This document shows positions 511 through 64,000 of a stretch of 64,000 bases of DNA, one piece after another (the stretch's first letter is position 1; each line of letters begins with the position of its first letter). The stretch covers positions 602,181 to 666,180 of the forward strand of contig NW_003314311.1 in the NCBI RefSeq assembly GCF_000143415.4, in the 5' to 3' direction. The notes below the pieces were generated by a model. That model saw nothing but the letters and a program-made list of their open reading frames with translations. It searched no databases and was not told the origin of the DNA. The stretch comes from Selaginella moellendorffii. Its lineage: Eukaryota; Plantae; Lycopodiophyta. The translations under genes were made by a program, and so were the position numbers.

Positions 511-1632
511 TGTTCCTTAGTCCGACTTTTATTGGTGCTCAAGTATATCACCACTAGTGTTGGCATCGGAAGGTCCGAGGAGTGGGCCTATCCTTGAGGA
601 GTAGCAAGTCGGGAAGACATGGCTCTCCATTACAGTTCATGTGTGAACTTGTAGACGAGGTGGTGGATAGAAAAGGGCCAATAATGGAACGACTTTGGGA
701 TCTTGGAAACAGTGCAAGGTTTTCCTCATTGAGTTGAGGATGTGATCCGGATGAGCATTTGTCTCAGCAAATTGGCTAAGGTTGTTGTGGTAAACAACTA
801 AAGTTGGGATCACGGGAAAGATAGAGACTCCAAAACAATAAAGGAGTCACAAGATTATCCTCATATAGTTGAGGTTGGTGCTCATGAATGTGAGACCAGA
901 GGTAATGACCGTGGGAGGTCAAATACGGAAGAGGACTCAAGTCCTTGAAATGGTAGCCGAGGCTACCTTTAATAAATGCTGGAACAACCCAAGGAGTTGG
1001 GGGTTGTACTTAGAGATGAGTGGTATTCTCATCGCATGGACAAGTAGTCCTAAGGAGCAAAAGTTGCCCCCAGAGAACAAAATCAAGTGTCGGAGTAACA
1101 CTTGTGAAAATAGTCCTTTTGAGTAGGACAGGAATGCAAGAAGTGTATTCCAGTGAGCTAGTGCCTCACAAGTAGGACCTTAAGGGTTTGTGGATTAACC
1201 AAGTCCAAAACTGCTGATGACTCAAGTAGAGTCAAGGGATGGTCCTAAAAGGACTGATGGAAGCATTTGGACTGAGGTGTGTTGTACCCCACAAAGGATG
1301 GGGGGGGGATCATAGGATCCAAGGATGAGAACAAAGGGTATCTCATCGATGGCAAAATGTGCCATGTTAAAGTTATGGGAAAGGTGTTCTCAGAAGAAAA
1401 CAACTTTGACACAAAGTTGTGTGTGACCTCTATGGTGCAGTGCTAACGGATGGTTGGCATGAGAAAGAGCGGTGTTGGTCTTAGCAAAAACATAAACACG
1501 AAGGGGAAGTGTCATAGAGGTAGGCTTGTGGAGCCGATGGTGTGGAGACACCAAATGTGCCAAGGTGTGATACCTTAAGGCTTTGTTGGTGGGTTCATGA
1601 GAACCCCTTGCCAAAGGAATCCCAATGGAAAT

Positions 1633-1656
1633 AAGCTCTATTTCGTTAAAGTGGGA
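1633..1656 (+). repeat. Left terminal inverted repeat (24 bp)
   Basis: Exact reverse complement of 15039-15062. Confidence 0.95.
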
Positions 1657-2063
1657 ATTGTCATTATCCCACTTGTAAAATAAGGTTTCCAAACCTTTAT
1701 ATAGTATATAAATATAACAAAATTCAACTGCATTGAGGCACATGCCATTTTATTTTAAACAAGGAAATGTCTACTCAATCACTTCTCACTGCTTCACCTC
1801 TCTCTTCTCCTTGTCATTGTCGTCCAATTTCTTTCCATCCTTTTAATATTGGCTCAGTTGCTCCGAGTCTAGGTGGAGCCCAAGTCCCCATTCAATCTTT
1901 ACTTTCCCCTTATTAATAAAACAACTTCGTAGACTTCCAATAACATGCTGTAACACTTCTAGTATAATGCAAATCCTCTCAAAGAATTGTCTTTTAATAT
2001 TAATACAATGGCATGGAACCCCATGCCATAATAAGTTACATTTTTAAATAAATACATGCCATC

Positions 2064-2926
2064 TCAGACTGTTATTTTTTGCCTCCAACGCCTATACAAT
2101 AATCTTGGAATTTCATCACTCTCCACACTATCAGGATTTAAACCCAATAGTAATGCCATCTCTTCTCTAATACGTCCACGCTCATGTTCAGTGGTCGAAG
2201 AACCCATCCGGTTGAGCAGATTATGGAGATGCGGATAGTGCTTGGCTAGACAATATACATGCCATAAATGATGACTGGTGTCTGTCCGATCAAATGGCTT
2301 CTGATATACCGTTCCATCTGCCATTTGGTTGATTTCTGCAGCCACCTCCTGGACTGGCCGGTTCTCTATCACCATCGCTTCAAGCCGTTTTGCAAGGTCC
2401 CCCAGAACATACGGTTTCTTCTCCCTAGTTTCCATACTGCAAGAGATGGGGTGCACTGCATATGTGTGCGTGTTCGCTGCAGTTTTAATCGGCGAGTCAT
2501 CGATGATGAGGATTTCACTTGACCTAGCAGTCCGGTTCAACACTACAGCCTCTGCCTTGATGAAGATGGGCTTGCTACCCCTCACATGGACCATAGTCAA
2601 GCAATCCTCCTGCGTTAGGAGAAAGTCAAATGGTAATATTACTCGCGTCTGATCGTGCATCATCTGTAGCAACGTTAATGCATTGTGGCGCATCATGGAT
2701 GTCCAAACTCCCAATTGCAAATTGAACCCGGCCCTCTGTTTTAAGTGTCGCATGGTCATTATTAGATCCCGCAATTTCTCCCGTGTGATTAATGTGAATC
2801 TATCTCTTTTGACCAACTTGCGACCGCAGGCTTTGGAGGGTGCAGTGACATTCGAGGACGAGCCACGCTCATGGGAGAAAAGGACACCGTTCAGATCAAA
2901 AACGATACAGTACTTTCGCCGTGACT
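2064..2926 (-). other. FCP1/SCP (NIF)-like HAD phosphatase domain (last exon)
   Basis: CIVFDLNGVL (HAD motif I, DxN variant), LGVWTS (motif II), ILIIDDSPIK (motif IV), typical of plant FCP1-homology-domain proteins. Confidence 0.75.
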
Positions 2927-5900
2927 CTGAAATGAAATGCGTAAGCATAAAAAATGGTACAAGTCAATTTTACCATCTACAATATTAGCGAATGGTGCTC
3001 CCGATGGTCGTTCAGAGGGTTTTGGTCGAGGAAACGTGAAGGGCGGAAATACTCTCCTCTGCAATGTGGGGTCAATCGCATCCGATGGCGTGTGGGCACA
3101 TGCCATTTCAGCTGTAGACTCTGGTACAACTGGCTCAACAGTGGCATGGGGTGGTTCCGATGGCGTGTGATCACACGCCATTTCAGCTGGTGCCTCCGTT
3201 GGCAAAGTGGACATGACCGAACAGGCAGCAGGGGCAGTGTAGGGAGGTTCCAACGGCGCGTAGTCAGACGATTGGGCACACGTTGGAAATGAGGATACGA
3301 CCGGCTCGGCGGCTGGGGCGGCCTCATGCGGGTCCAATGGCGCCTGGTCACCGTCAGTTGGATACGTGGACAAGATTGACTCAGTGGTATGGGCAGCATC
3401 AAGTGGAGTGTGGTCAGCTTGCTTGGCGTTGATATGGATAGTAACCTCCACCAGCTCTGATGACTCTTGCAGGCAAGTAGAGTCCACTGGCGGATCCATA
3501 TGCATGTCCAAATATCTCCCTTCGATTGAGATGGTATCCTCCCGTGCTACTAAAAACAAACTCATTAGCACATTGAATCGACTATACTGTATTTACCATC
3601 AACTGCTATTGAGGAACTAGGACCGATATCACTTGGGCGCACTGCTGATTCTGAAGGATTGGACATACGTTTCGACCCTTGCTTGGCACTATCCTTCCTC
3701 GACACTAAAGGCTAGAGTTTGTATCTTAATTCAACTGAATAATCTCTACTTACCATTTCTTCTGCGACCTACATGGACAATGTTAGAAATGGTAAAAGGT
3801 TAGGAATGGATGTACTATTATTTACCTGATGGTTTGTCTTGTATGACCTTCCTCCGCTGCTCTTTGGCCACCTCAGGCTGGCCATCATCGTCATCATCGT
3901 CATCGTCGTTATTGTGATCGTCACCATTGTGAGGACCATCCAAGTCCTCTTCGTCCTCCTCTTCTTCGTCCTCCTCTTCTTCGTCCTCCTCTTCGTCCTT
4001 CTGCTCTTCCTGCTCATTATCTTTCTCTGGCTCCTCATCCCCCTCTTGCATTTCTTCCATAGGCTGCTCAGGCTGGATTGCTTGTTTTTCCAGGACCATC
4101 TTGGAAAAATCATCTGGCCGAGTCTCCATCTCAAAATACAAGACATCCATAGCCTGTTTTAGTGCGTGACCTAGGGCCGTATCCTCACCCGACTGTCTTA
4201 ACATGGTTTCTGCACGTTCTTGCACCCTTCGAAGACGACGAGATGAGAAAAACGTGGCCCTGACTTGAAAAGCATCCCTCATCCATTGTACCTCTCCATT
4301 GAGATTGGGGAAGGGGAGTCCGCCATAGGAATCTGAGTCAGAAGGTGGTGACTGGCTCCTTTCACTCAGCCCTTGATCTGCAATGAATGGCATGAGCACA
4401 CACGCCATAACCGCAAGGCATTACCTATCATCTTTTCGTTGCCCTTCTTCCTTTTCGAATCAAACGCCTCTGATCCCGACGACTGTCCAACGTGCTTTCG
4501 CTTTTTATGACCACTGTCAGTTTGAGCTTGGCTGGTGCTTGCCTGTTTTGCCTTTGAAGAAGTGTCTCCTGCAAGGAATGGCATGAGACCACACGCCATT
4601 GCAAATATAATTTGTACCTCCTTTTTTCCTATTGCTTGTCTGTTTGTCCTTCTTCGACGCGCCACCAGTGCGCTTTTCAGTCCTCGTGTCTGAATATTCA
4701 CAACGATCTATAATCAAAATGGCGTGAGGCCTCACGTGACCTTACCTTGTGCAGGTTGTGACCTCGGCCTAACATCAGTAGCTGTTAACGCCGTTTCAGC
4801 ATCTGGGGGTGGCCACGCTCCTGCATACAGAGCTTGTGAGATAACATTTAAACTTAAAGTGCGTACTCACCAGGTTCGTAGAGAAGATACTGTTTTTCTT
4901 TGGCAACTGTAATTATATGCTCCATTGAAGTCACCTCTTCAATGGAGTTTGTCACCGCAACACACGGGACACCCTTGAGTAGTGCGGCTCGAAAGAATAG
5001 TCCGCCGCAGTTGTACTCGACAACGCATTTGCCCTTGGAGTCACCCGCTATTGCGTTGAAGACCCAGCTGAGCATTTCCCATGCTGCACCTGGAGCTTTC
5101 TTTGGATTCGAAAGCTCCATAGCCGTCTTCAGTTCCTCAGGCACGGGTAAATTGACCTCCCTCAGATCAATTCGATCGGCTTTGTTGAACGAAGCTGGGA
5201 AGTCACTCCAGTCCCACTCTGCTGCAGGACCAATAACAAGGGCGACTGTGAAGATGCGGACATTCGTCGGTATCTTCTTCTTAGCCATTATCCCATGGAT
5301 CTCCCGCATCTCCTTGCCTTTCAACCGAGCCTTCACCTCGTTCAAGGCCTTCCAGAACTTGTGATAGGATTCGGAGTCGTAGATCATATAGTGGACTGAA
5401 GATTCCACCTCCGCAAGTCCCACCATTAAGTCAATGATGGAGCTGACTTCGTCTGCATGAGTGATCTCCTCGTTTGTGAAGTCCATCACACAAAAGATGT
5501 TCTTGACCTGCTCATCTCCGCGGGAAACGATGCTCCTCCACCTTTGATCCTCATCCGAATTCACGTATACCCGGTAAGGTTCTCGATAGGCCTCTGCTGC
5601 GGGGTCGAGCTGTTTCTGAAGCCGGCGGTCGACATCCCTCTTAATGAAATTTGGATACTGATCCAACTTCTCAGCTTTACTTTTCGTGGCATCCCGCAGC
5701 AGATCGATGAACTTGGGGGCCCCCTTCACGTACTCGTCGATGTCTTCATTTGACAAGTCCAGCTCTTCCATCATCTCTTGCGTGGTGTCGATGCTCACCC
5801 TCGCCACGGCCACTTGCTCGAAGATCCAATCCTTCAATAGCGCACGAGCTCTCAGAGTCGTGCACAAGTCCTCGTATGTCACAATATGGCCGGGAGTCAT

Positions 5901-7654
5901 TTTGGTCTTGTTGAAGACTACCTCACCAAGTAGAAGAGCATTAGCCACTGTCAGAAGGTCGTCGTCGTCTAGAGACCGCGAGAAACGCAAGGCGTTGAGC
6001 TTCAAATCATTGGGCTTCCGGCCGTCCTCCACACCCATTGAGTTTAGCAACTCCCCGTCATGGTACCTCCTTAGCACATCTACCCATTTGTCAAAAACAA
6101 CTTTTGTCGCGAGTAGAATGTTATGGATGCTGAGTGTGTCATTGACCCCCAGTGTTTTCGAGAGAAGACTCGAGAATTCCTGCAATGGAAATGGCGTGAG
6201 GCCACATGCTATGCCACATGCAACGAGGCTTACCTGCCAGGCGCTAGTTGCTAGTGCACGTCCTTGTCCTGGTTTTTGTGGCTTCTTCAGTTGAACCCAG
6301 AGCTTCCGTGTTCGTGCCAATGTCTCGTGCAGACCCGATTTGTAGCACGTTTCTTGCTTGACATTCTGCGCGTGGGAGATGTATATGATAGATCGGAGGG
6401 GCGAGTTGCCTTTTATCAGGCGGACAACTCTTGTCTTGAAGACTTTCTTCACCTCCTCGCCCACCATAATATCCACAACTATCTGTTGCATCGCCAAGCT
6501 AGAATGCTGCCCGGAGACGGCATAGAACCGGATGTTCTGATCGTCCAACACCTTCCTATTGATCAAGTCTGGAAACCTCGTCTCGCCCTTCATTGTTCGG
6601 TAGTAGGGGATCACGTCTACGATGTCGGGTGTTACTGGACTTGCCAGCATCTTCTGCTTCAGTTTCTCCACCCACTCATCAGATACTAGCCTGTGGTTGT
6701 ATTTGCTTTGGATCTCGATACGGCTCACGTCGATTGTATATACTTTGTTGGAATAGTAACAAGTACTATTATCTGCGACGATTTTTGCTGCCTCTTCTTG
6801 CTCTTTCTGCTCTTTGCGGCTCTTCTTTTTGGTGGGTGTAGTGTTCGAACCCGAGGCAATGGCATCACCGAGTAGCTTCTTTTTTGGAGCAGCAGAGTCG
6901 GACGTCGGCTTGAGCTTGACCACCCTTTTCTGCTTCGGGGTAGTTTCCAGATCGACCCCCTTCCCCTTCGCTTCGCAAACTGGAGGCACTCTCAACGGCT
7001 CAATGTTGGAATATAGTTTTTGAACATCGCCGTAGGTGAGGTCCGTGGATTCCATGTGATCTTCATAGATCCGCAGCGTCTTTGAAATTGTGGGCCTCCT
7101 GGACAACCTCTCCCTAGCTCCCTCTAGGAATTCCTCATAGCCGCTGCCCCCCTCCGGGAAGCCGCTAGGATGTGCAAGGTGGATCTTGAAGGCGGACGCT
7201 GTCTCTACCACAAGTGCCAGTCCATATTCTTGCATGGAACTGCATGGAGTGTCTGTCACTTGGATGAGGATCCCCATGCATTCTTTTCTCCCACCATCTG
7301 TGTTGTACAGCATCAGATCCTCGCCTTCCATCCCGAAAGTCCAACTGGTGAGCTCCTCCCCCTTCTCTGCATCCACATTGACAGTGGCTGGAAGAAGAAC
7401 GCAATTCCTCGCCTGTTCAAAAATGCACAACAATTAGAGCTGACAGATGAAAAGCTAGCAGCTGGAAATAACGTGAGGCCACACGCCATTCACCACTGCA
7501 TCAGATGTCTTGAGGCTGCATCCTAAGATGGCGTGAGGCTACACGCCATCTGTAACCGGACTGCACTCGAGAGCCCAATCGGTGCATGCCAATGTTGCTA
7601 CTGAATGGCATGTGGCCTCATGCCATTTTCTACTTCGTCTAAAAGACTTACCAT
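2064..7654 (-). CDS. Spliced transposon accessory gene, ~1631 aa: ParB/Srx-like + degenerate DNA MTase-like + acidic/repeat linker + FCP1/SCP-like HAD phosphatase domain
   Basis: Proposed exons (minus strand): 7654-7652 (ATG), 7412-6234, 6179-4871, 4820-4746, 4689-4618, 4568-4425, 4377-3826, 3768-3754, 3704-3597, 3549-2974, 2926-2064. All introns are GT-AG. The joined length is 4896 nt with the frame kept at every junction, linking ORFs 4854..7433, 4517..4735, 4366..4701, 3818..4408, 2891..3571 and 2064..2948. The start codon and the 54-nt in-frame intron are the least certain parts. Confidence 0.75.
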
Positions 7655-8334
7655 TTGAAGCCGAATGGAGGCCGTGACAATCGAGGCCGGACTCGCTGGC
7701 GAATGTGCACTGTGTGTGCAGCGGATCGTAGCAGCAAGGCTACTCTGCCACTTACAGTTGGAGAGTGGTGCTGAAATCTCCCGGGACGCCAAGTGGGCTG
7801 CGTGTGGGTGGTGGAGTGGGCGGCGGAGTTGGCGGCGAAGTTACAAACTGGGTGTGTCTTGAAGTGGACGCCGATGCACACGAGCGCGATGCGAGCGCGA
7901 GTGTGATGCAAGCGCGAGTGGACGCCGATGCACACGAGAAACCTATAGAGAAGTGAGCGTGATCGCGAGTGGGAGCGCGATGCGAGCGGGAGCGCGAGTG
8001 TGATGCGAGCGCGAGTACAAAGCAAAATGCAAAACCTAACCTCACACGCGCGAAATGTCACAACGGTTGGTAATCCCGCCACGTCATCATTCCTCGGACT
8101 TGGGCGCCACCATTAATTTCTGGATTGCCGCGCGCATGCAAGCACGCAAAATCCAAAAGAAATCCGCAACGTCATCATTCCTCGGACTGCATGCACGCGA
8201 AATCCAAAAGAAAGATCATGATTGGGATATCATTTAATACCCTCGCTATATTTATACCATGCATGATTGGATATTCCAAAGCATCTTGTATTTCCAAAAA
8301 TGGCAGATGTTCAGCTAAATAAAGAAATTCTATC

Positions 8335-9720
8335 TGTTTCTATTTTTCTCTCAAATCAATATTATAGCATGTGGGCTCATGCAATTTTGAACCAAAGAAA
8401 CCCAAAAAACGTTGGACCCAAAATATTTTGAAAAAACCCAAAAAACCCTAAACATTTTAAACCCAAAAATCCAGGCGTCTATTCCTTGAATGGCGTGTGG
8501 GCGCATGCCATTTTCAGGGCCAAATGCTGAATGGAGAAAAATTCCCTTTCAGTGCAAATGCTGCAAGAGGCAGATGCCGAGCACAAAGGACTGTAACTAC
8601 CTCACATGACATAGATAAACTTTTCTCTATTTGGGAAAGATAAACTTTATAGCGTGTGGGCTCATGCAATTTTGAACCCAAAAAATGCACCAAAAAATTC
8701 TCGGCGTCATCTGGCGTTATCTCTTGAATGGCGTGGGGCCGCATGCCATTTTCAGGGGCACATAAGAGTATATTCCTAGGATATTCTGACACGCGCGAGA
8801 TTTTTTTGAGTTTTCTGGAGATCCAACCGTTAGATCGCAACTAGATTTTACAGAATGGTATACAATGTCTTTCTTGATGACCCTACAAAGAAGCATCTCA
8901 ATCGGACACCACATGAGACCACACGAGCCTTACAATGTTTCAGGGGCATTTGCCATAGATCCGACTGTTATTTTGCTCCAAGATTTTACAGTTTGGTGTG
9001 CATTGACCTTCCATCGAAACTGCAAAGGGACATCACAATCAGATGCGGGATCACAAGAAACTAACTTCACTAACTCTGGTTTCACCAAGATCTACGTAAG
9101 GAGTTATGAAATGAAAGGACCCTCTCTATTGAAATGTGTTTATGGTCCTAGGGGCATTGTGACATATCAAAGGATTTTGCATCAAGTTCTGTATTTGCAT
9201 GTTTATCAAGCTACTGAATTGCTAAACCCTAAACCCTAAACCCTAAACCCTAAACATGTGGCAAATGCTGTGTGAAGAAAGATGCCCTTTCTGGGCAAAT
9301 GCTGTAAGAGGCAGATGCCGAGCAGATGTATCTCAGGCTAGCGAAGGGGACGAACGAAAGCTAGCTATAAACATGACGGGATGCAAATAGATTACTAGGC
9401 TGGTCCTACGAAAATCAAAAACCATAATTGAAAACATTGAAAATGCAAAAAGAAAGGTTTATAATATTTTTGAATTTTAGGCAACCAAAGGAATGTAAGT
9501 AGGGCATGTGTTTGTAAGTTTAAAAATGCCTCAACCACTTAAATTCCCAAGTAAATAAAGCTGTTTCTATTTTTGGTACAGGTAAACTTTATAGCGTGTG
9601 GGCTCATGCAATTTTGAACCCAAAAATGCACCAAAAAATGCTCGACTAGCATTATTCTTTGAATGGCGTGTGGCCTTATGTCGAGCATTATTCTTTGAAT
9701 GGCGTGTGGCCTTATATTGC
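8335..9720. repeat. Three related direct-repeat units in the intergenic centre of the transposon
   Basis: Units at ~8335-8515, ~8620-8757 and ~9561-9720 share TTCTATTT...ATAGCRTGTGGGCTCATGCAATTTTGAACC...TTGAATGGCGTG. GCAAATGCTGYAAGAGGCAGATGCCGAGCA is repeated at ~8554 and ~9295. Confidence 0.8.
9222..9254 (+). repeat. Interstitial plant telomeric repeat (CCCTAAA)4+
   Basis: ctaaa-ccctaaa-ccctaaa-ccctaaa-ccctaaa. Confidence 0.9.
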
Positions 9721-10421
9721 CATAAATGGACGTACACACACAGCGTAATTATTCCTTTACACGGCGAATAATCTTGGCGCGGATCGCTGACATGGCATGG
9801 CAAAGTTCGAATCACTGACATGGCACAGCTGGATCGAGGCAAGGACATGATGTGACAAAGTTCAACCTCCGACAGCAAAGTCTAGAAGCTACTCAGTTTG
9901 AAATTTGTCAGAGGAATCATAAGATCTGGTTTGTCAGAGGATTTGATGTGACGTTCAAGCGTGTGTTATTTTTGAATTCTCGAACTCATTCCTAGGTCTA
10001 TCATTTTTGTGCGCCGTGTTCTTGGTTCCGCTGAGCGCAGTGAGCGCTGCTTGTGTAAGCGGCGTTGTGGGCTGTGGTTTATGCGTCTACGAGCGGTTGC
10101 GGCATTGCGAGCGCCATTGCGAGCGGCAGTTTATGCGAGTGGCAGTTTGTGCGAGCGGCGCTACGAGCAGTTGCGGTGTTGCGAGCGGCGCTATGAGTAG
10201 TTGCGGTGTTGCGAGCGGCACTGTCTTTGGTGTGGCTACCGCTTCCTCTTGATATTCGGCACTTGTGCTTCCTGGTATGTTCACCATGGAATGGCTTAGG
10301 ACCACATTTAGAAATGGCATGAGGCCACATGCCATCTTGGGCCCTTGCAATTTCATGGCTAGCGTATTGTCATGTATGTTTTTACTTGCCTGCAGCTGTG
10401 TGTATATCAAGATGGCATGAG

Positions 10422-10585
10422 CATGCCATCTTTGGCCCCTGCTAGCCTATTGCCATATTCCTTTTGCCTTGCTGCAATTGTATATATTTTTGTATGGGTG
10501 ACTAGTCACGCACACAAAAATATATACAGTTGCAGCAAGGCAAAAGGAATATAGCAACAGGCTAGCAGGGGCCAAAGATAGCGTG
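10422..10585. repeat. ~164-bp near-perfect loopless inverted repeat (fold-back) upstream of the transposase
   Basis: Arms of ~82 bp centred on GTGACT|AGTCAC (10503/10504), with about 7 mismatches, mostly transitions. Confidence 0.9.
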
Positions 10586-10787
10586 AGGCCTCATGCCATT
10601 AGTGGTACCACTAATGGCATGAGGGCTCATGCCAATTTTGTGAATGCGAAATTTCACGTGGGTGTCAATAGCATGTTTGAATAATGGCATGTGGCCTCAT
10701 GCTATTGAGGTTGTTTGGTATGTTATGATTTAGGCCATTCTCCAATCATTTTTTGTATGGTCTTAACTTCTTTTCTGCACTTTCAGA

Positions 10788-13700
10788 ATGGCCTTCAGGG
10801 TTGGGGAAAAGGTTTACATTTTGAATGGTGGGAAGAGAGTTGCAAAAGGGACCCTTGTGTCTATGGATCGGAACTTTGTTATACACTGTGAAAGGCTTGG
10901 GGAAGGCAATGCTGCTGTATCAGTAGAGACTGTCTTCGATGGGAATGTGGTTGCTATTGAACGAGGAGAGATGGTCGTCGGGGTAAATGTTGTTGTTGCC
11001 TTGAAAAATCTTCAGAAGAAAGCAGATGTTGGGGACAGCGCAAGTGCGACGCATGTTCCCTCCGTGGATCTTAAGAACCGTGCTACATGGATTCAGGCAA
11101 AAGTGTTTCTAAACAACCCCGAGGGGGAGGTGGTAGCTGAGGGCTTAGCCACAGTTGTCGATCCAAGAGATGCGGTTGCTAATCAAGAATTGGGCTGGGA
11201 TGATATTGGAGTTGCGATTTTAGAGGTTGTTGACACAGAAGAAAACAGTCTGACTATTGGAAGCATTGTGCGGTGGAAATTGAGGCACTTAGTGTTTGAG
11301 AATGTGAAGGATTCACAATCAAACACCACTACAACTAATGACAGAACATCTCTTCATGGGAAAAGAAAGTACACCTTCCTAAAGCGTGGCCAAAGGGATC
11401 TGAGCAACGAACCGAAAAGGCAGAAAATGGCGATGGAGGTTCGAATGGTCTCGACAGTTGCTTGTTGCAAGAGGAGGTGCTGTCAACATGCTGATTGGGA
11501 TGCTATTGAAGAGGAGAGAGCAAGATACAAGACATTGTCCTGGAAGGCAGCTCGCAATTTTGTGTATGAGGCATTACGGTCATCTGTTGATGCTTCAGAA
11601 CATCAGGTGGGGGGCATGGTCTTCCAGAGGGGTTTGGTCTGCATGAAGGCATGGAGAATCATTTATGGAGTCCCTCGAAGCACATTCTACAGAATCAAAA
11701 CTGAGTTCGAGGAACAAAGGGTTCAACAGGCAGTCCATGGGAACGACGGTACGCACAAAACCAGGGGTCATGTTGTATATGGAGAGGCAATCTTCAATAG
11801 GTTTGTCGAGACATGTAGCGAGCAGCAACCACATAAAACCCGCCTCTTGGAAGATGGAACACGAGACACCCAACGAGTTCTCCCTTCCATGTATACCAAG
11901 GGGGCCATATTGGAAGATGTGAATCGGGAACTCCAGAGTAATGGCTACAGGAAGCTGAGCCAATCTAGATTTAGTAGATTGTGGAGCAACAGGTTCAGGG
12001 ATGTGAGTATAGGAAAGTACTCCAGCTTTTCAAAGTGTGACGAGTGCACTGCTATCAAAATGGCTTTGTCGAAGAATTCTTGCAGCGCTCAAGAGCGAGA
12101 GACGTTGGTTAGAAGGCGGCTCGACCACAACATCGAGCAGAGAAGCTGCAGGACTGCATATTATCATAACAGGATTCTCTCCATGGAGAGACCTGACTCT
12201 TACCTCTGCATCATCCACGACAAAATGGACCAGAAAAAGACGTGCTTACCTCGACTCAATCCTGCCCCCAAGGCAATCTCTTCATCCATGCAGCTGCCTG
12301 TGTCTCTGTTTGGCATAATCGCTCATGGGCATGGTGCCCAGAACTATGGGAACTTCTTTGTACCTCTATGGGGTGGCGGGGGTGCAAACATGATGATTGC
12401 GTCCCTAGCAAAACACTTAAGGTCTCTGCAAAGTGCGCAGACTGAGCTGAACGGCCAACCCTTGCATAAGGCCCTTGTCGATCGAACCCCATACAGGGTT
12501 CAGCTGGAGGAGGAGCAAAGGCTTGCAGTATCGCGTGGGGCCCCATGCCATCCCAGTGAATATGTTGGCCGTCAGATTGTAGGGTTATCACGTGAGGCCT
12601 CATGCCATTCCGACGAGGCTAGTCGCCCGGTGAATGCACAGCCTCATCCAAACGAAGCAGAATCTCAAGGAAGTTCTTGCGGCCGATGTGGCCTTCCACC
12701 CCATCTTCTGCTCCAAACAGACAATGCTGGCAGTGAGAACAAAAACATGTACGTCTTCGCGTACTTGGCGATGCTTGTTGCCAAAGGCATATTTGAAACG
12801 GTTACACTTGGCTTTCTCATGGTTGGGCACACTCATGAAGACGTCGATGCCATGTTCAGTCACCTGGCAGAGTCCCTCCGGCGATCCAATGTCCTCACCC
12901 TCCCACAACTCTACGATGAATTCCAAAATTGCATCAAAGGCACTGTTGAAGCTGCACTTCTGACAGAGGTTCCAGACTTTAAGGGGTTTGTAAGAGGCTA
13001 CATCAGGGATGGATCCGAAACGCTGATTGGCCACTCCAAGCCTCTTCAGTTTCATTTCAGCATGTGTGACGGTGCTCCAGTGATGAGGTACAAGATGAGA
13101 GAATGGGACACAGTGTGGCTGCCAGTGGACGGCATTGAACTCTTCAAGAGAGATCCCATAACTGGGGAACCTATGATTCCTCAGGGTTCCCCACGGCCGA
13201 TGCACCCGGATGGACTCAAAGACCAGGAAAGTATAGTGGCCGGGATTAGACAGCATATTGCCTTCTGGAAGAGGGGGTTGGTGTTTGGTGGAGAATCCTA
13301 TTTTCAGAGGTGCAAGCCTTTGCTCGAATACTGGGAGAAGATTATATCTGCTATCCAAAATGGGCCGGTTGTATATGAAGAATTGGAAGAGTCCTTTTGG
13401 CCAGAACCCAGAGCACCAGATAGTAGCGGAACAATGTCCTCTGGAAATGCAGTGACAGATAACGATGTTGAGGATCACTATTGTGGGCCGAGGAACAAGA
13501 AGCCGGATTCAGCATTCAATCCAGTACAGGTCTGCAAAGGAATGGTCGTGCTTGTCAGACCCAGTAATAAAAAACAAATGATATGGGTGGGGCGCTGCAT
13601 CACTGATGCAGAGGAGGACGCGGAAACTTACTCCTTCAATGTAACTGTGGAGTGGTTCAAGCCAAGTTCCGGATATACGAAGGATTGCCTAGAAAAGAGA

Positions 13701-13856
13701 TGGGTGCTGAATCCAAGGGATCCCAGCATGAGCATATCGGTGGATAATGTTGTGCATGGTTGGATGCGGAAGCAGAGTGCCACCATCACCTTGCCAGACC
13801 ATGCAAGAGATGCAGCAAGAGCATTCATAACTCGAGTTCAAGGTGAGATTCATTAA
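10788..13856 (+). CDS. DDD-type transposase (Sola1-like), 1022 aa, intact
   Basis: Cys-rich CCKRRCC...VCMKAW..IYGV, HGN and FSKCDEC motifs. Candidate catalytic motifs IIHDKMDQKK, QTDNAGSENKN and FLMVGHTHEDVDAMFS. Lies inside the TIR/TSD-bounded element. The ATG is preceded by a TTTCAG acceptor-like site. Confidence 0.82.
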   Translation: MAFRVGEKVYILNGGKRVAKGTLVSMDRNFVIHCERLGEGNAAVSVETVFDGNVVAIERGEMVVGVNVVVALKNLQKKADVGDSASATHVPSVDLKNRATWIQAKVFLNNPEGEVVAEGLATVVDPRDAVANQELGWDDIGVAILEVVDTEENSLTIGSIVRWKLRHLVFENVKDSQSNTTTTNDRTSLHGKRKYTFLKRGQRDLSNEPKRQKMAMEVRMVSTVACCKRRCCQHADWDAIEEERARYKTLSWKAARNFVYEALRSSVDASEHQVGGMVFQRGLVCMKAWRIIYGVPRSTFYRIKTEFEEQRVQQAVHGNDGTHKTRGHVVYGEAIFNRFVETCSEQQPHKTRLLEDGTRDTQRVLPSMYTKGAILEDVNRELQSNGYRKLSQSRFSRLWSNRFRDVSIGKYSSFSKCDECTAIKMALSKNSCSAQERETLVRRRLDHNIEQRSCRTAYYHNRILSMERPDSYLCIIHDKMDQKKTCLPRLNPAPKAISSSMQLPVSLFGIIAHGHGAQNYGNFFVPLWGGGGANMMIASLAKHLRSLQSAQTELNGQPLHKALVDRTPYRVQLEEEQRLAVSRGAPCHPSEYVGRQIVGLSREASCHSDEASRPVNAQPHPNEAESQGSSCGRCGLPPHLLLQTDNAGSENKNMYVFAYLAMLVAKGIFETVTLGFLMVGHTHEDVDAMFSHLAESLRRSNVLTLPQLYDEFQNCIKGTVEAALLTEVPDFKGFVRGYIRDGSETLIGHSKPLQFHFSMCDGAPVMRYKMREWDTVWLPVDGIELFKRDPITGEPMIPQGSPRPMHPDGLKDQESIVAGIRQHIAFWKRGLVFGGESYFQRCKPLLEYWEKIISAIQNGPVVYEELEESFWPEPRAPDSSGTMSSGNAVTDNDVEDHYCGPRNKKPDSAFNPVQVCKGMVVLVRPSNKKQMIWVGRCITDAEEDAETYSFNVTVEWFKPSSGYTKDCLEKRWVLNPRDPSMSISVDNVVHGWMRKQSATITLPDHARDAARAFITRVQGEIH

Positions 13857-14144
13857 TATTCCTTTACAAAGTTTCTAATGTATTTTATTTCAAGGTGAAC
13901 AATCCGAATCTGAATCATAGGAGGCTTGATATAGTGTGTGAGGTAAAACAAAGATGATGTGACATATGCATTTACCAATCACACGTGCATAAATCTAATA
14001 ATATGGCGTGTGGCCCATATTAATGGCACATAAACCCATATTGTGGGCTTACGTGCTTTATGTACCATCATTCCCTTGCAGCGTGTGTGTTGGTTTCCTT
14101 TTATAACACAACAAACTCCATATTTTAGGGTGAAGAGCGTTCTC

Positions 14145-14402
14145 ATGGCAAGCACAAAATCTGTAAGTGAGGCAGAAAAGGAAACGGAGAAGGAGATAGG
14201 TGAAGATGTAGAATATATAAGTCTTCCAAACTCCCCGTACTATACTCCAGGTGATCATTTTTCTGAACAAACGGCAACATTAACAACTATCGAGAACGCC
14301 CCAGTAACGTCAGAGACAACAATCCAAAGCAAAACAACTGACCCGGAGAAGGATGATAGTACCGCTAAGAGTACCAAAAAGGAGGTGTCCACTAGCGCTT
14401 AG
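14145..14402 (+). CDS. Possible small acidic/Thr-rich ORF (85 aa) in the right arm of the transposon
   Basis: MASTKSVSEAEKETEKEIGEDVEY... from the ATG at 14145; no recognisable domain; flanked by palindrome copies at 14003 and 14410. Confidence 0.25.
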   Translation: MASTKSVSEAEKETEKEIGEDVEYISLPNSPYYTPGDHFSEQTATLTTIENAPVTSETTIQSKTTDPEKDDSTAKSTKKEVSTSA

Positions 14403-15038
14403 GCTTATAATGGCGTGTGCCCTCATGCCATTTACTTGATCACCAAATACCTTTTTCCCTTTGCACTAGTATATCTTAATACCGGTCTGAGAAATAGAAT
14501 GGCATGTGCCCTCAGGCCTTTTACTAAATCACCTTTGAAAGAAATGCAAGCCTCTATGTCGTAAAAAAAAGGTACTAGAGAAATTCCTTAATAATATGAA
14601 TGTTATTTAGTTTCATGAAAATACACTAAGGGTCAAATGAGTTAAATGACTTCTCCAGACTAGCAATGCCTCTTGCTACACCTTCACAATTAGATTCATT
14701 AGAAAAAGATAACATTGAATAATATCTAAATGTTCTCACCATTAAGTTATATGTCTGGCTAATAGGAATGATGTTCATCTTGGAAAGCTCACCACACGCT
14801 CAATGAACAAACAAATAGTGTGTGCGCGCATGCCATCGCTCTTCTTTAGCTTCAGATTCGGCTTGTTCACCTTGACAATGAGATTTATTATACAACTAGA
14901 TGGACTCAGTCTGGACATAAGGTCACCGCGCTAGTCACCATGCCCCAGATATGTCTAGCCCCTGGACAAAAAACATATAATTTCACGTCATTTTCAAATA
15001 CTTGAAAATTTGTACCTAGTCCCATTTTACTGAATAAA

Positions 15039-15062
15039 TCCCACTTTAACGAAATAGAGCTT
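15039..15062 (-). repeat. Right terminal inverted repeat (24 bp)
   Basis: TCCCACTTTAACGAAATAGAGCTT followed by TSD AAAT. Confidence 0.95.
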
Positions 15063-18025
15063 AAATGGGAATGGCATAGCCTAAGCTGCAGAGCATGCAG
15101 TTGGAGTGTGGTGACCCAGATAATGATGGAGGTGTGAAAGCACCAAACAATGAGTTGTAGGACTTGACAACTATGAGGCAACTAAGCAAGAGGTGCAAAA
15201 TAACTGGTTGAACGGGTAGAAGGTAGCTACCCAAAACTTCTTAATAGCATAGGGAAGTCAGATACACCCTTACGGGGGATAAGTTGCTTGTGTTGTGATA
15301 TAGTAAATCAATGTCATAAAAGGAAATACTCATTGTCAAGAAAGCCATCATTGGGACACCCGAACACTCTAGAACACCAGAAGGTGGTGTTTGATGTCGC
15401 GAGGGCAATGAATAAAGCCCAAGGGACTAAGTCCCTAGCGAATGATGGATAGAAGGTGCTATCCAAATGTCCAAGGTTGCGGAGACAGGAGAGGACTGTC
15501 TACCTGAGTTGGACAAAGCCAAGAATGGAATTTTGGCAAGGCTAGTGATGGGCATGTAAAGGCCCATAAGCAACAATGTAATCCCAGTGTGTGGGATTAT
15601 AAGGTGAGTATACCCGGATTGAGGAACCACTCCTTGGGCTATTGGGTAGGTACATCCCTAAGAATACTTGCTAAGGCATGATAGAAAGTGCAAAGCTATC
15701 CTCCTGGTCTGGAGGAGAATAACCAAAGGAAACATATGGGGCCAAAAGGCAAGTAGTATTGGGATGGAACTGAACCATAGAAATCGAAGGGCATAACCAA
15801 GGTTGGTTATGCCAGCTGGGAGTGGAGAATCAAGTGGGGGCTCGAGGGTGTTGCCGCTAGCAACCGTGATGCCATGGAGAGTCTAAAATATGGAATTGTC
15901 CATGTTAGACTATGTGGCAATTGGAAAGCTTGCAAAAAGGGAGGCCTTAGCAAGCTAAGGGACAGAGTTCCTTCAAGGTTCCCAAAGACGATTCTAGGTA
16001 GCTTAGTACCTAGAAAGGCCAAGTGTAAATGGTTCATAGAACGCGCGAAATCAGAGTGGCGCAGCAGAAGCGTGGTCTTGAAGCTTGCCATGAGGCAAGG
16101 CTGTCAAGGTTAGGGAAGTAGTTCCCGAGTGTTCAAAGAGAGGGCTTTGAACGAAAGTTGATGGTTAAGGACTTCCACGCTTATGCATGAACCATGTTAC
16201 GGTGGCCGGATGACTTGCTAAGTGAGATTGGCAAGTTGGGGGGAACAAATACCCTAGTTGAAGGTGCTAACTTCAAAACGGGTGGCCCATGGGGCCAAGC
16301 ATGGAGGAGCCCATGCATGATCACAGATATGTCAAGTGAGAGGACTTGGCAGTGTGGGGGAATTAGGTTCCTAAGCTGTGATCTGTAGCGCGCTTTAAAA
16401 ATAAGTTGGTGCACCGGCGTGGGGAGTCATGCCAGGCATCTTGTGTGATGCCGTCCGTAGATGCATATACGGAGGTTGGGTTCGAGTCCCGACCCTCTAG
16501 TGCTTGGGTTCGAGTCCCAAATCACTAGGGCGTGGTGATGGTTTGGAATATGAGGACACTCATATTTCGGTGGTCATGGACTCTCAGTGGGGAGACTGGT
16601 TTGGGCACACCGCCAAGCGAGGGATGCCTCGGAGTCGTGATGCACGGTTAGATTGCTTAGTGTGAAAGCTCGGCATATCTAACTTGAACGCTTTGGTGCA
16701 AGTGGCACCAAGGACGTGGTGAGTGAGATGGGGACACCTAATCTCAGTTGCTATGGACCCTTGGCCGGAAGGGCTGGCTTGGGCGCACCGCCAAGTGTGG
16801 GGGATGCCCCCGGGGTCGTAGTTAACAAGTTAAAGGTCTGGAAGACCTAGTACCTATTGGCAAACCTGTTAAGGTGCCGAGGTGAGATCACTAGGTGATT
16901 TTGTGGCTAAATAAAGACAAGGTCCTTGTTTGGGTTAAGGAATAAGGTTCCTAGTTCAAAGTGTTGATTTGAACTATTGATGATGGTGTGGCTTGGTCAA
17001 GGTGACCAAGTGGGAAAAGCACCTTAGGGAAGTGAGCTATGTCATTGCGATGGCATAGTGTGTCCAAGGAAAGTAGTCTCTAAAGAGACCCATGAGAGGG
17101 TCACAAAGTTGGGCCGAGGATAGAGCCCACAGCAGAAGATGCTAAAAGAGACTTACTAGGGGTGAACACCCTAGTCTTGGCAAAGCAGAGCCTTTGCTAT
17201 GGAATCAAAAGAACACCTCAAGGAGGGAGGTAGAGATTCGATGTTGCTTGGTGCAACAATCAATGGATAGGAGCAAAAGATGAGTGGCCAAGATAGGGCC
17301 GTGGAATTCCTTGGAAGGAATCCAAGTGACAAAGTTAGGCGAGGAACACTAATGTGTTGGACGCTAACAAATTGCGGGAAAGGAAGTGTGTTTCCAAGGA
17401 TGGATTCTGAATTGCTCCGATTTGGCGAAAGTGGAAGCTCCAAGGGAGGGAGCGGTAAGGTAGCCAAATGATAGGGCGATGGACAACCCTAGCACAAAGT
17501 GTGATAAATGGAACTTAGTGCCCAAGGTGGCACGAAATAGAAGAGAGGATGATGGTGCCCTCAAGTAATGAACTTCCTAGGATAGGGAAGTGGAGTTGCA
17601 CAATCTGTGCAATGCAAGGTGTTGGAGACACCTAGGAAATTGACTTCCAAAAGTCAAAAGAGTAAAAGTTCCAAGGTGCAAACATTCAATAGATGGAAAT
17701 TGAGACTACTCAAGAAGGAGTAGTGGGATTGACTTAGAGAAGGGTCTTTAAGAGGTTTAGCGAGAACTAAACCAATAAAAGGTGTGGTCCAATCAGTCTC
17801 TAAGTTGGAGAGACTACCCTCCTTAGAGGATAAGCAAGGCATGGTGAGCCTTTGGTGTCAAACCATTGAGGCATATGCAAAAGGCATGGTGAGCCTTCAA
17901 TGTCAAACCATTGACAAATATTGGCTAGGTGCCAAGGATGGAAATGGTAACACATGCGAGTGTTACTTTACAAAATGGTTTACCGTTCGATGAGGACATC
18001 GAACTTCGTCTATGGGTGGTGGAGT

Positions 18026-60548: not shown

Positions 60549-61328
60549 ATACTAATCTTCTGCCATCGCAGTACCTCATGAGCCCAAACTATGTTTAAAT
60601 TAAAATATTTTAGTTTATTATAAAGAAATGCTTACTTTCAAATGCATCTTCAGTTAAGGAAAAGGTTTTAAAACCTTTTGACTATATAAAGGTGTTTTTA
60701 ACTACACAGAGTCACTATAAACAAAACCAAATGATAATAAGCCTCAAATGGTACATGCACTTAACTAAGATCAAATGAAAGTTTTAAAGATCAACAGAAG
60801 CGAATCTAAAAAGCTTGTACTATGGAAAGGCTAGAAACAGTCTATGCATGGTTTGATTTACATGACATGGTAGATTCTAAGATTCTTTCATATCTATGGG
60901 AGAATGATGAGACAGACAAGTCTAGAAGCTTCACTAGCGAAGCATGGAGGTGGCAGAAGTCTACAGAAATAGTATAGAAGATTTAGTGATGGCAAGAATT
61001 ATTGTGGGAAATCAAAATCTTGATAGGAAGGAATAAGAAATTTTGAGAGCTTGGCACAATTTATCACAAGGCATGGCAGGAAATGTGGCAGAAACATGCA
61101 AAACAAACGTAAGTTAGTCAAAGATGGTGGGCATCATTACAGAGGCTTGAGGATAAGAATAGAGCAATCCGGCCAGGCCTGGACATAAATAGATCCATAA
61201 ATAGACCAAACAGTATATTGTTTTTGTTTCCTTCCCATTTGTTGTGTTGCATTTATTTTGTTCCAGGCGGCTAAACCAGTGTCATATCCCACATATATTA
61301 TCCTTTGCTCAAAGCATTAGAAGCAGCA

Positions 61329-62876: not shown

Positions 62877-63160
62877 TTCCTAAAAATGTCAGAAATATAA
62901 AGATTATTCACTAAAAACCCTAAGCAAAACTTTAATTAATATCATTAAGTTCACTGGATCAATTGATTAAATTAACTCACTTTACTTTTTAATGCATATT
63001 CTTCTCATTTTACTTTGATTAACTAATGTCCAAAACAACTATGTAATTCTCCAAAATCAAATTTTCGGTATATAGTTCCACCTTACCGATTTGCTCTCCT
63101 AACTTTGCTCCACATGCGCTTTGATTTTTTAGGGCGACCAAGTCGATCGATCACCCACCA

Positions 63161-64000
63161 ATGCATGCCCTGAAAATGCCATGGTTCCGCCTTCTAGGCC
63201 TCGTCCTCTCGCTCACTCTCGCCTTGCACTTCCTCCTCAAAGCCCAGCAATCGCCCAATCCATTCTTCTCCAGCTTCATCCTCTTAAATCACACGCTTCC
63301 TCCTCGCAGCAGCGACGAGAACGAGCAAGGCCTCCTCCCAGAAGTGTGGAAGCAAAAGGATGATCGCGGCCGCCAGTGCCTCAGCCGGTTCCAATACCAG
63401 TCGTATCGCCGCCACCCCTCCAGCCCCTCCCGCCCGTCCGATAGCCTCATCCAACGGCTCCGGGAGTACGAGGAGCTCCACGCTCGCTGCGCTGGAGAGG
63501 CCGACAAGTCACCACCGTCGCCGTCGGATCCCCCGTGCCAGTTCGTCGTGGCCGTCGGATACATGGGCCTCGGCAACAAGATGATCTCGCTCGTCGCGAC
63601 CTTCATCTACGCGCTGCTCACGAACCGAGTTCTTCTCATCGCCGCCGCCGAAAACATGGATCGCCTCTTCTGCGAGCCGTTTCCTCAAAGTTCCTGGCTC
63701 CTCCCAAAGTCGAAGATGGATCTCCTGTACTCACTGAATGATTCTTTCCGGTTTGGCAGCGTTGTCAAGGCGTTTGGATCCGGAGAGTGCAACACCAGCG
63801 GCGTCAAGTACCCCGGAACCGTGCTCGTCCGGATCACCCACGAGTATGATCGCGACGACACCAAGTTCTTCTGCGAGGAGCAGCAGGACGTGATCCGGAG
63901 CCAAGTTCCCTGGGTGTTTGTCCGATCGAACGTCTTCTACGTCCCCAGCCTCTACTACGTTCCATCGTTCAAGTCGGAGATGGAGCGGCTCTTCCCCGGC
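63161..64000 (+). CDS. Xyloglucan/galactoside 2-alpha-L-fucosyltransferase (GT37), 3'-truncated by the window
   Basis: The frame open from ATG 63161 has an N-terminal TM, CLSRFQ, LIQRLREYEELHARC, GLGNKMISLVATFIYALLTNRVLL and LFCEPFPQSSWLLP, which are hallmark plant FUT motifs. Absent from the ORF track because there is no stop in the window. Confidence 0.9.
   Translation, partial: MHALKMPWFRLLGLVLSLTLALHFLLKAQQSPNPFFSSFILLNHTLPPRSSDENEQGLLPEVWKQKDDRGRQCLSRFQYQSYRRHPSSPSRPSDSLIQRLREYEELHARCAGEADKSPPSPSDPPCQFVVAVGYMGLGNKMISLVATFIYALLTNRVLLIAAAENMDRLFCEPFPQSSWLLPKSKMDLLYSLNDSFRFGSVVKAFGSGECNTSGVKYPGTVLVRITHEYDRDDTKFFCEEQQDVIRSQVPWVFVRSNVFYVPSLYYVPSFKSEMERLFPG

What the first reader, a model, noticed from the sequence alone, without database searches (positions are those of the whole stretch)
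2064..7654. Hidden 11-exon, ~1631-aa gene fusing ParB-like, MTase-like and FCP1-like phosphatase domains
Six separate ORF calls join in frame through GT-AG introns of 47-57 nt (plus one of 239 nt). The product has a ParB/Srx-like region, a helical region, a Rossmann-like region, Lys/Arg-rich NLS-like exons, a long Glu/Asp tract, Pro/Ala/Thr repeats and a C-terminal HAD phosphatase of the FCP1/SCP family, some members of which dephosphorylate the RNA Pol II CTD. A transposon-borne DNA-binding protein with a CTD-phosphatase-like domain could alter transcription or silencing locally (inference).
Basis: partly seen in the sequence, partly recalled or inferred. Interest (0 to 1): 0.85.

Follow-up and report, generated by a model that had tools for sequence, protein, structure and literature searches.

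The report
Plant transposon carrying ParB pseudo-enzyme gene
This is an intact 13-kb jumping gene, likely from a non-seed plant, whose second, predicted 11-exon gene joins a bacterial-style ParB DNA-binding fold to methylase-like and phosphatase-like parts lacking their standard catalytic motifs; the protein likely binds some 25 copies of a palindrome concentrated in the element and would help keep it active, a design already proposed for algae.

Summary
The gene model is real: ten GT-AG introns at the stated sizes give a stop-free 1631-aa frame, far beyond chance. No predicted junction was seen spliced in the 4 runs laid, so 'one gene' remains a prediction (~0.7).

The gene is cargo of an intact Sola1-type DNA transposon (1633-15062; 24-bp TIRs, AAAT target duplication, empty sites elsewhere in the window) with a divergent DUF7869 transposase. 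A 22-bp palindrome occurs about 25 times in the element, mostly in introns and between the genes.

The ParB fold is confirmed by structure. The methyltransferase-like domain resembles beta-class N4/N6 enzymes but lacks the xPPY motif in all rows tested. The NIF domain passes Pfam's cut-off but reads DLNGV, not DxDx(T/V), so the CTD-phosphatase idea is unsupported.

Best reading: a self-targeting accessory protein, VANC-like in logic, probably non-catalytic. Ectocarpus Sola1-1 (ParB + methyltransferase) is the published precedent, and this scan has noted the same design, phosphatase part included, in other plant genomes. New variant of a known kind.

The parts
1633..15062 (.). Whole Sola1-type DNA transposon (13,430 bp), inserted into a repeated (LTR-type) element
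   Evidence: TIRs and TSD; the flanks are contiguous in 3 other copies in the window
1629..1632 (+). Left target-site duplication AAAT
15063..15066 (+). Right target-site duplication AAAT
1633..1656 (+). Left terminal inverted repeat (24 bp perfect)
15039..15062 (-). Right terminal inverted repeat
10788..13856 (+). Intact 1022-aa transposase ORF, DUF7869 (PF25273), divergent from the cargo gene
   Evidence: Pfam E 5.8e-42; HDKMD, Q-x-DN and GHTHED motifs invariant across 15 aligned sequences
7652..7654 (-). Cargo exon 1 (ATG only; least certain exon)
   Evidence: a related copy uses another donor
6234..7412 (-). Cargo exon 2: N-terminal region, K-rich linker, ParB/Srx domain
6351..6749 (-). 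ParB N-terminal (CTPase/Srx-fold) domain, aa ~223-355; invariant GQH, R and N
   Evidence: Z 10.6, rmsd 2.3 A, 98 residues aligned to Caulobacter ParB 7bm8; alignment
4871..6179 (-). Cargo exon 3: helical region (likely DNA-binding) and MTase-like Rossmann domain
4893..5582 (-). Degenerate beta-class amino-methyltransferase-like domain, aa ~594-823; motif IV position reads MDFTN, motif I position reads EYNCGG
4746..4820 (-). Cargo exon 4 (predicted)
4618..4689 (-). Cargo exon 5, K/R-rich (predicted)
4425..4568 (-). Cargo exon 6, K/R-rich (predicted)
3826..4377 (-). Cargo exon 7 with Glu/Asp tract (predicted)
3754..3768 (-). Cargo exon 8, 15 nt (predicted)
3597..3704 (-). Cargo exon 9 (predicted)
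2974..3549 (-). Cargo exon 10, Pro/Ala/Thr-rich (predicted); another copy has an in-frame 9-nt insertion here
2064..2926 (-). Cargo exon 11 with NIF/FCP1-like HAD domain (about 2466-2912); motif I reads DLNGV
   Evidence: Pfam PF03031 26.8 bits vs cut-off 21.8
2008..14836 (.). 25 copies of a 22-bp palindrome, consensus ATGGCATGAGGCCTCATGCCAT, starting at 2008, 3085, 3160, 4387, 4578, 4719, 6191, 7468, 7528, 7605, 8364, 8490, 8649, 8728, 9591, 9663, 10314, 10578, 10614, 10684, 12530, 12587, 14410, 14499 and 14815

Best explanation
The gene is the accessory gene of an intact Sola1-type DNA transposon, and its predicted spliced product likely binds, through its ParB-fold half, the roughly 25 palindromes concentrated in the element and would act there as a probably non-catalytic scaffold that keeps the element transcribed and mobile. 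Shown: the element's ends, TSD, transposase, open spliced frame, ParB fold, palindrome enrichment, and the absence of the xPPY and DxDx(T/V) motifs. Inferred: (1) splicing into one 1631-aa protein (~0.7); (2) sequence-specific binding of the palindromes, probably as a dimer as with ParB on parS (~0.7); (3) that the degenerate MTase and NIF domains and the acidic tail serve for binding (DNA or modified bases, phospho-proteins, chromatin) rather than catalysis (~0.65); (4) that the net effect is anti-silencing or activation rather than repression (~0.55).
For: Element anatomy. ParB fold: Foldseek E 5.6e-4 to Noc; VIA Z 9.3-10.9 to ParB/PadC, with some alignments running on into the helical DNA-binding part, model 19-316 at rmsd about 10. 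Palindrome: the unbiased exact spaced word ATGGC-N12-GCCAT occurs 11 times inside vs 0 outside (p 3e-8). 24 of 27 pattern sites lie inside, against a shuffle mean of 0.39 matches. Only 4 of 25 sites are in coding sequence (p 1e-5), and 7 of 9 sites in the cargo span are in introns (p 1e-5). VANC21 sites are likewise concentrated in introns and intergenic regions of VANDAL21 (PMC5735166 passages). Red-algal Plavaka ParB genes lie next to inverted-repeat arrays (bioRxiv 10.1101/2025.02.11.637652 section 8). The element keeps CG and CHG (observed/expected 0.71 and 0.90) better than five flanking retro-element stretches (0.27-0.47 and 0.41-0.64). The family is old: homologs in Selaginella and Calypogeia, and one metagenome locus (L066/L068) has the cargo's helical domain (E 2e-4) on the opposite strand about 8 kb upstream of a DUF7869 transposase. 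The catalytic motif is absent in 7 of 7 cargo-family rows (4 clusters counting the window) but present in 26 of 34 beta-class controls.
Against: No binding or expression data exist for this copy. The RNA run X10 shows almost no reads over the gene body, and 0 of 10 junctions were seen. Against a near-identical copy (X1 contigs), 18 of 19 C/T transitions have T in this copy, which suggests that this insertion is methylated and decaying rather than protected. CG retention is confounded by age, since the element is younger than the repeat it sits in. Coding differences from X1 are 5 synonymous to 14 non-synonymous, neutral-like though on few sites. Only 1 distinct locus among 80 transposase loci (37 of them 10 kb or longer) showed cargo, and none showed the NIF domain. 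The canonical ParB GxxR arginine (motif recalled) is replaced (GQHS/T), so CTP-clamp behaviour is doubtful. The MTase assignment rests on a 51-column profile match of probability 23.6%; by structure it ties with unrelated Rossmann folds (Z 5.0-5.4).
Confidence: 0.45

Rival explanations
1. Same binding, different job: the protein is an autorepressor or a transposition-assembly factor. It would bind the palindromes around the divergent promoters and near the ends to limit transposase expression or to bridge the element, as plasmid KorB represses at its operators.
For: 13 of 25 sites lie in the region between the genes or in cargo intron 1, and 4 are subterminal. KorB is among the top fold matches (Z 8.8-8.9). 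This copy looks silent in X10 and shows a C-to-T bias.
Against: Sites are spread through the whole element, including 3' introns far from the promoters, more like VANC targets than an operator. CG and CHG are retained relative to the neighbours.
Confidence: 0.3
2. Two transcripts rather than one: a ParB-pseudo-MTase protein of about 835 aa ending at the stop at 4856-4854 (intron 3 unspliced), plus a separate or alternative NIF-domain product.
For: An in-frame stop lies just inside intron 3. Selaginella homolog models end right after the MTase-like domain. The best Atlas cluster is 813 aa. No junction was seen in RNA, and one X3 contig runs 23 nt into intron 7 unspliced. In-frame Met codons exist downstream.
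Against: Intron 3 has a consensus GTGAGT donor, and introns 3-10 are all phase 1 and chain in frame. No AATAAA lies in the 570 nt after 4870, only one ATAAAA. A second Streptophyta Atlas cluster is 1673 aa. Both isoforms could coexist.
Confidence: 0.27
3. The domains are active enzymes with non-standard motifs: the protein methylates its own element (4mC or 6mA) and/or dephosphorylates Pol II CTD or another phospho-protein locally.
For: The Asp at motif IV and a Gly-rich motif I remnant persist in the MTase-like domain. The NIF domain keeps the nucleophile Asp and has motif II-IV-like words (WTS, K, IIDDSP) (motif roles recalled). The nearest Atlas clusters of the NIF part are large viral FCP1-like families, so DxN may be a tolerated subtype (not tested).
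Against: There is no (D/N/S)PP(Y/F/W) anywhere in the 1631 aa, and replacing that motif abolishes activity in rotifer N4CMT (PMC8885841 passages). The DxDx(T/V) signature is not met, and no BRCT domain was found.
Confidence: 0.15
4. The gene is a passenger now drifting neutrally, with no current role.
For: Neutral-like synonymous/non-synonymous counts (5:14), C-to-T decay and no expression seen in X10.
Against: A fully open 1631-codon frame with intact splice sites, an in-frame indel in another copy, invariant ParB motifs across distant homologs and a maintained palindrome array.
Confidence: 0.08

Closest known systems
Sola1-1_Ec32 of Ectocarpus and its 1104-aa ParB-like + N4C/N6A methyltransferase accessory gene (PMC12477816; passages and supplement rows seen, FASTA supplements not readable)
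   Same: Giant Sola1 element with a 4-bp TSD; accessory gene on the strand opposite the transposase; ParB followed by an amino-MTase domain; proposed to bind and modify its own element.
   Different: Here the host is likely a land plant, the TIR is 24 bp and perfect (282 bp imperfect there), the MTase catalytic motif is missing, a long disordered region and an FCP1/NIF-like domain are appended, and a defined palindrome array is present. Sequence homology to the Ectocarpus protein could not be tested.
Red-algal Plavaka accessory genes PAG2 (N6-MTase + SET) and PAG3 (ParB + 2OG oxygenase) (bioRxiv 10.1101/2025.02.11.637652; passages and section 8 read)
   Same: Transposon-borne ParB domain with inverted-repeat arrays proposed as self-binding sites; prokaryote-type modifier domains as cargo.
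   Different: Different superfamily (EnSpm/Plavaka) and different effector domains; ParB and MTase are on separate genes; the repeats are a tandem array there and dispersed here.
VANDAL/VANC anti-silencing system of Arabidopsis (PMC5735166; passages read)
   Same: Accessory gene of a DNA transposon, with a family-specific motif concentrated in introns, intergenic and terminal regions.
   Different: Mutator-like host element; a 9-bp non-palindromic motif in tandem repeats; no VANC-type family hit in the Pfam scan. VANC function has been shown experimentally; nothing has here.
Bacterial/phage ParB-parS, Noc, KorB, and phage ParB_N + N6_N4_Mtase fusions
   Same: ParB fold followed by a helical region; the nearest named Atlas clusters are phage ParB_N/N6_N4_Mtase proteins (score 0.79, a lead only); palindromic candidate sites.
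   Different: The GxxR arginine and xPPY are absent; the gene is spliced and eukaryotic; no ParA partner was found in the element.
FCP1/SCP (NIF, PF03031) HAD phosphatases
   Same: Pfam match above the cut-off over profile positions 1-126 of 160.
   Different: DLNGV instead of DxDx(T/V), no BRCT; the nearest Atlas clusters are mostly Nucleocytoviricota FCP1-like proteins (not a sign of transfer by itself).

Membership tests
Sola1 DNA transposons | 4-bp TSD with AWWT preference | tested here: met
   AAAT on both sides, with empty sites in other copies; AWWT named as a hallmark in PMC3845634 passages
Sola1 DNA transposons | Terminal inverted repeats | tested here: met
   24-bp perfect TIR
Sola1 DNA transposons | DDD-type transposase with intact acidic triad | tested here: met
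   DUF7869 E 5.8e-42; HDKMD, Q-x-DN and GHTHED invariant in 15 sequences. That these form the Sola1 triad, and that DUF7869 is Sola1, is recalled and comes from no call.
Sola1 DNA transposons | Transposase groups with Repbase Sola1 rather than Sola2/3 | not testable with these tools
   No Repbase sequences on hand
ParB/Srx superfamily | ParB N-terminal fold | tested here: met
   Z 10.6, rmsd 2.3 A, 98 aligned; Foldseek E 5.6e-4; pLDDT mostly 70-90 in this part
ParB CTPase clamps (Spo0J/Noc/KorB) | GxxRxxA CTP-binding motif (recalled) | tested here: not met
   The family reads GQHS/GQHT in 13 of 13 rows
ParB CTPase clamps (Spo0J/Noc/KorB) | HTH DNA-binding domain after the N-terminal domain | tested here: inconclusive
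   Alignments extend to model residue ~316 but at rmsd 7-15 A; the domain was not folded alone
Beta-class N4C/N6A DNA methyltransferases (PF01555) | Homology, with the catalytic motif N-terminal to the SAM-binding motif | tested here: inconclusive
   hhalign E 8.6e-4, score 31.4 over 51 columns vs at most 18.7 in 20 shuffles and 14.2 reversed, probability 23.6%; global alignment puts MDFTN on DPPYN with low confidence; no Pfam hit; structural Z 5.0-5.4, tied with unrelated folds
Beta-class N4C/N6A DNA methyltransferases (PF01555) | Catalytic (D/N/S)PP(Y/F/W) motif | tested here: not met
   0 of 7 cargo-family rows vs 26 of 34 controls; motif shown essential in PMC8885841 passages
FCP1/SCP (NIF) phosphatases | PF03031 domain above the gathering score | tested here: met
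   26.8 vs 21.8 bits, E 4.8e-6
FCP1/SCP (NIF) phosphatases | DxDx(T/V) signature | tested here: not met
   D-L-N-G-V at aa 1355-1359; signature per PMC5070719
FCP1/SCP (NIF) phosphatases | Pol II CTD phosphatase activity | not testable with these tools
   Needs an enzyme assay
VANC-type anti-silencing proteins | Family-specific motif concentrated in non-coding parts of the element | tested here: met
   21 of 25 sites are non-coding; 0 matrix sites outside the element
VANC-type anti-silencing proteins | Sequence homology to VANC | not tested
   No direct comparison; the Pfam scan of the cargo ORFs gave no such family
VANC-type anti-silencing proteins | Binds the motif and causes hypomethylation | not testable with these tools
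   Needs EMSA/ChIP and bisulfite data

The most novel reading that the evidence does not exclude
Non-seed land plants have a second, independently evolved transposon anti-silencing system. A Sola1-borne ParB protein, descended from phage-type ParB-methyltransferases, lost its methylase activity and gained an FCP1-like module. It docks on a 22-bp parS-like palindrome written into the element's own introns and promoters, and couples the element to the Pol II CTD phosphorylation machinery (as a phospho-CTD reader or an atypical phosphatase) to keep it transcribed.
Probability: 0.25. Interest if true: 0.8.

Novelty: new variant of a known kind. Interest (0 to 1): 0.5.

Why it matters
According to the Bostrychia preprint, VANDAL/VANC is the only transposon system known to bind and modify its own sequence, and the ParB-based algal systems are proposals without a tested target. 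This copy is intact and supplies a complete candidate protein, an intact transposase and an explicit 22-bp candidate site, so the self-targeting hypothesis can be tested directly by EMSA, DAP-seq and reporter methylation. It also suggests that the ParB targeting module swaps effectors (MTase, 2OG oxygenase, here pseudo-MTase plus NIF). If it does protect DNA bearing a short palindrome, it would be a usable sequence-specific anti-silencing tool.

Tried and rejected
No whole genome is held, so there is no copy census and no proper dN/dS.

RNA: no RNA holder was listed among the indexed runs. 4 of 23 listed runs were laid on 1600-9100. X1 is unspliced across introns 10 and 6 and covers upstream non-coding DNA, so I treated it as DNA.

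Word-index homolog searches for longer proteins found nothing with exon 3 or with alignment A1; both tools call this weak evidence. Of 14 hits in the profile-library search I dropped 3 as spurious repeat proteins (P0043, P0046, P0055).

Sequence searches of PDB, PHROGs, NCBIfam and Pfam did not name the ParB or MTase parts (the best was a PHROG ParB at E 0.17). Phage tblastn and viral-contig scans found no relatives.

The single-sequence fold of the NIF exon was unusable (pLDDT 38.7) and was not searched. The ParB homodimer prediction gave no answer.

No NIF or MTase hit was found in 80 transposase loci, many of them short or degenerate. No locus carried this palindrome, and L066 showed no palindrome family of its own. 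Rfam over 7400-10800 gave only sub-threshold hairpin matches.

Literature: a search for FCP1 + phosphatase + transposon + ParB returned 0 papers. Searches found no land-plant Sola ParB-MTase paper; subscription journals and Repbase Reports are not covered. PMC5751038 and bioRxiv 10.1101/2021.09.26.461848 (passages) added nothing.

Rejected: that the region is a host gene or a bacterial contaminant (TIR/TSD, introns, plant neighbours), and that the joins are chance.

Full report
Observation. Joining 7654-2064 on the minus strand through ten GT-AG introns (239, 54, 50, 56, 49, 47, 57, 49, 47 and 47 nt) gives 4896 nt, i.e. 1631 aa and one terminal stop. Of six alternative splice choices tested, only a 3-nt shift of the intron-9 acceptor kept the frame. 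A strict short-intron path search gave 798 aa on the real minus strand of 4900-2064. It gave 152 aa on the plus strand, at most 167 aa in 40 simulations and at most 443 aa in 34 other window stretches. The donor rule was shaped on the observed introns, and the path missed intron 4. Intron 2 is in frame and has no stop, but homologs support it. In 6 of 8 clusters aligned, similarity ends at a W/F-x-V at that site (one cluster ends earlier; one annotated model continues), and a Selaginella RefSeq model reads WQ|EF like the spliced model.

RNA evidence is thin. Four of 23 listed runs were laid on 1600-9100, and none of the ten junctions appeared. In X10 (true RNA, about 12% of the run read), 198 reads were laid. 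Nearly all came from a 40-nt match at 7719-7758 to another abundant RNA; a few at 7122-7650 lay on the strand expected for the cargo and carried another copy's variants. One 59-nt X2 contig (RNA is a guess; depth 4) splices 7484 to the predicted acceptor 7413. X2 and X3 contigs diverge from the window beyond 7646, so they come from a differently started copy. One X3 contig runs 23 nt into intron 7. The single-gene model is therefore a good prediction, not a result.

Context. The gene lies in a 13,430-bp element, 1633-15062, with perfect 24-bp TIRs and an AAAT duplication. The flanks are two halves of a repeated element that appears uninterrupted at three other places in the window. A divergent 1022-aa ORF (10788-13856) matches DUF7869 (E 5.8e-42) and has relatives at 27-37% identity with invariant HDKMD, Q-x-DN and GHTHED motifs. 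A 4-bp AWWT target is described as the Sola1 hallmark (PMC3845634, passages). The host is likely a non-seed land plant. This is inferred from short introns, a neighbouring xyloglucan fucosyltransferase, Streptophyta Atlas clusters and named homologs in Selaginella and Calypogeia; it was not determined.

Domains. An AlphaFold model of aa 206-830 (intron 2 retained, 19 sequences, mean pLDDT 61.4) matches ParB/Noc/KorB/PadC. Foldseek gives E 5.6e-4. VIA gives Z 10.6, rmsd 2.3 A over 98 residues for the N-terminal domain, and several alignments extend into the helical region at high rmsd. G-Q-H, an Arg and an Asn are invariant in 13 aligned rows, but the arginine of the ParB GxxR motif (recalled) is missing. 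The Rossmann-like part (aa ~594-823) matches the SAM-binding end of a 34-sequence beta-class MTase profile: E 8.6e-4, score 31.4 over 51 columns, probability only 23.6%, against at most 18.7 in 20 shuffles. Atlas neighbours are phage ParB_N/N6_N4_Mtase proteins at 0.79, a lead only. By structure this part is not distinguished from other Rossmann folds (Z 5.0-5.4). The catalytic xPPY motif is absent in 7 of 7 cargo-family rows and present in 26 of 34 controls; it is essential in the rotifer enzyme (PMC8885841, passages). The last exon passes Pfam's NIF cut-off and is nearest to viral FCP1-like clusters in the Atlas, but it reads DLNGV instead of the DxDx(T/V) signature. Its single-sequence fold failed.

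Candidate target. An unbiased count of spaced palindromes found ATGGC-N12-GCCAT 11 times in the element and never outside it. A degenerate 20-bp pattern gave 27 sites, 24 inside and 3 in the flanking repeats, against 0.39 matches by chance. A matrix built from the 24 inside sites (circular for in-element counts) gave 25 sites, all inside: 10 between the genes, 7 in cargo introns 1, 2, 4, 5 and 6, 4 subterminal and 4 coding. Avoidance of coding sequence is significant at p about 1e-5. This is the distribution reported for VANC21 sites (PMC5735166, passages), and ParB-type proteins bind inverted repeats.

Methylation signals point both ways. CG and CHG observed/expected are 0.71 and 0.90 in the element, against 0.27-0.47 and 0.41-0.64 in five retro-element stretches, but the element is the younger insertion. 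Against X1's near-identical contigs, 18 of 19 C/T transitions have T in this copy, assuming X1 reflects the family majority. Coding changes are 5 synonymous to 14 non-synonymous, which is neutral-like (6 further variants were not shown). This copy may be silenced and starting to decay.

Breadth. Of 80 DUF7869 loci from metagenomes (37 of 10 kb or more), one locus, assembled twice (L066/L068), carries a degenerate cargo gene. Its helical domain scores E 2e-4 and its ParB tail E 0.08, on the opposite strand about 8 kb upstream of the transposase. None of the 80 showed the NIF domain.

What is known. Ectocarpus Sola1-1_Ec32 carries an opposite-strand 1104-aa ParB + N4C/N6A MTase gene, proposed to bind and modify its own element (PMC12477816; passages and supplement rows; FASTA files unreadable, so homology is untested). 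Red-algal Plavaka elements carry MTase-SET and ParB-oxygenase genes with inverted-repeat arrays (bioRxiv 10.1101/2025.02.11.637652, section 8; supplements closed). Iyer et al. (PMC4738411, passages) describe ParB-linked MTases from phage loci and inactive MTase domains in DIRS1 elements. No paper holding FCP1, phosphatase, transposon and ParB together was found, and no land-plant Sola case, within an open-access library. This scan's own unreviewed notes list 29 findings of Sola + ParB-MTase + palindrome elements in other genomes, three of those shown with a phosphatase part and a dead methylase. They agree with a reading I had largely formed earlier and are not independent proof.

Mechanism and verdict. 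Most likely the cargo is a self-targeting accessory protein. It would recognise the 22-bp palindrome through its ParB half (inferred) and act as a probably non-catalytic scaffold that favours expression or mobility of the element (0.45). Autorepression or transposition assembly (0.3) fits the same anatomy. A two-transcript arrangement (0.27) is a separate open question. An active MTase or CTD phosphatase is unlikely (0.15). It is a new variant of a known but experimentally untested kind; interest 0.5.

Noticed in passing
window 7719-7758: A 40-nt stretch just upstream of the cargo ATG matches a very abundant RNA (168-172 reads in X10 with loose ends on both sides). The flanks look like large-subunit rRNA (recalled; Rfam did not call it). 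It may be a captured rRNA fragment in the cargo's 5' region.
   Followed up: partly
window 10412-10599: A 190-nt near-perfect hairpin (88.5% inverted match) upstream of the transposase ATG, which is itself preceded by a splice-acceptor-like AG. It is a possible siRNA source or 5'-UTR intron structure.
   Followed up: no
window 7655-10787; L017, L019, L020, L021, L022, L058, L066, L068: A short plant-telomere-like heptamer array lies between the two genes. 8 of 37 long DUF7869 loci carry 20-39 such heptamers, in L066 between cargo and transposase. Telomere-type boxes may be a recurring part of these elements.
   Followed up: partly
window 14034-14402 (+): An acidic, Thr-rich ORF (122 aa stop to stop; about 85 aa from ATG) downstream of the transposase inside the element; no family hit.
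   Followed up: partly
window 8334-8763, 9262-9324, 9552-9675: Internal duplications of 50-130 nt that contain the palindrome, suggesting that the sites multiply by local duplication, as VANC motifs do.
   Followed up: no
window 15063-60000: Dense nest of strongly GC-skewed repeated elements with 12/23/35-nt tandem arrays and no Pfam-recognisable retro ORF among the six tested; possibly non-autonomous LTR elements.
   Followed up: no
window 61275-64000: Host genes: a cytochrome P450 and a xyloglucan fucosyltransferase.
   Followed up: no
P0042/P0056/P0057/P0058 (Selaginella moellendorffii): Annotated Selaginella genes hold only the ParB tail, helical region and pseudo-MTase; they could be truncated or domesticated copies of this cargo.
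   Followed up: no
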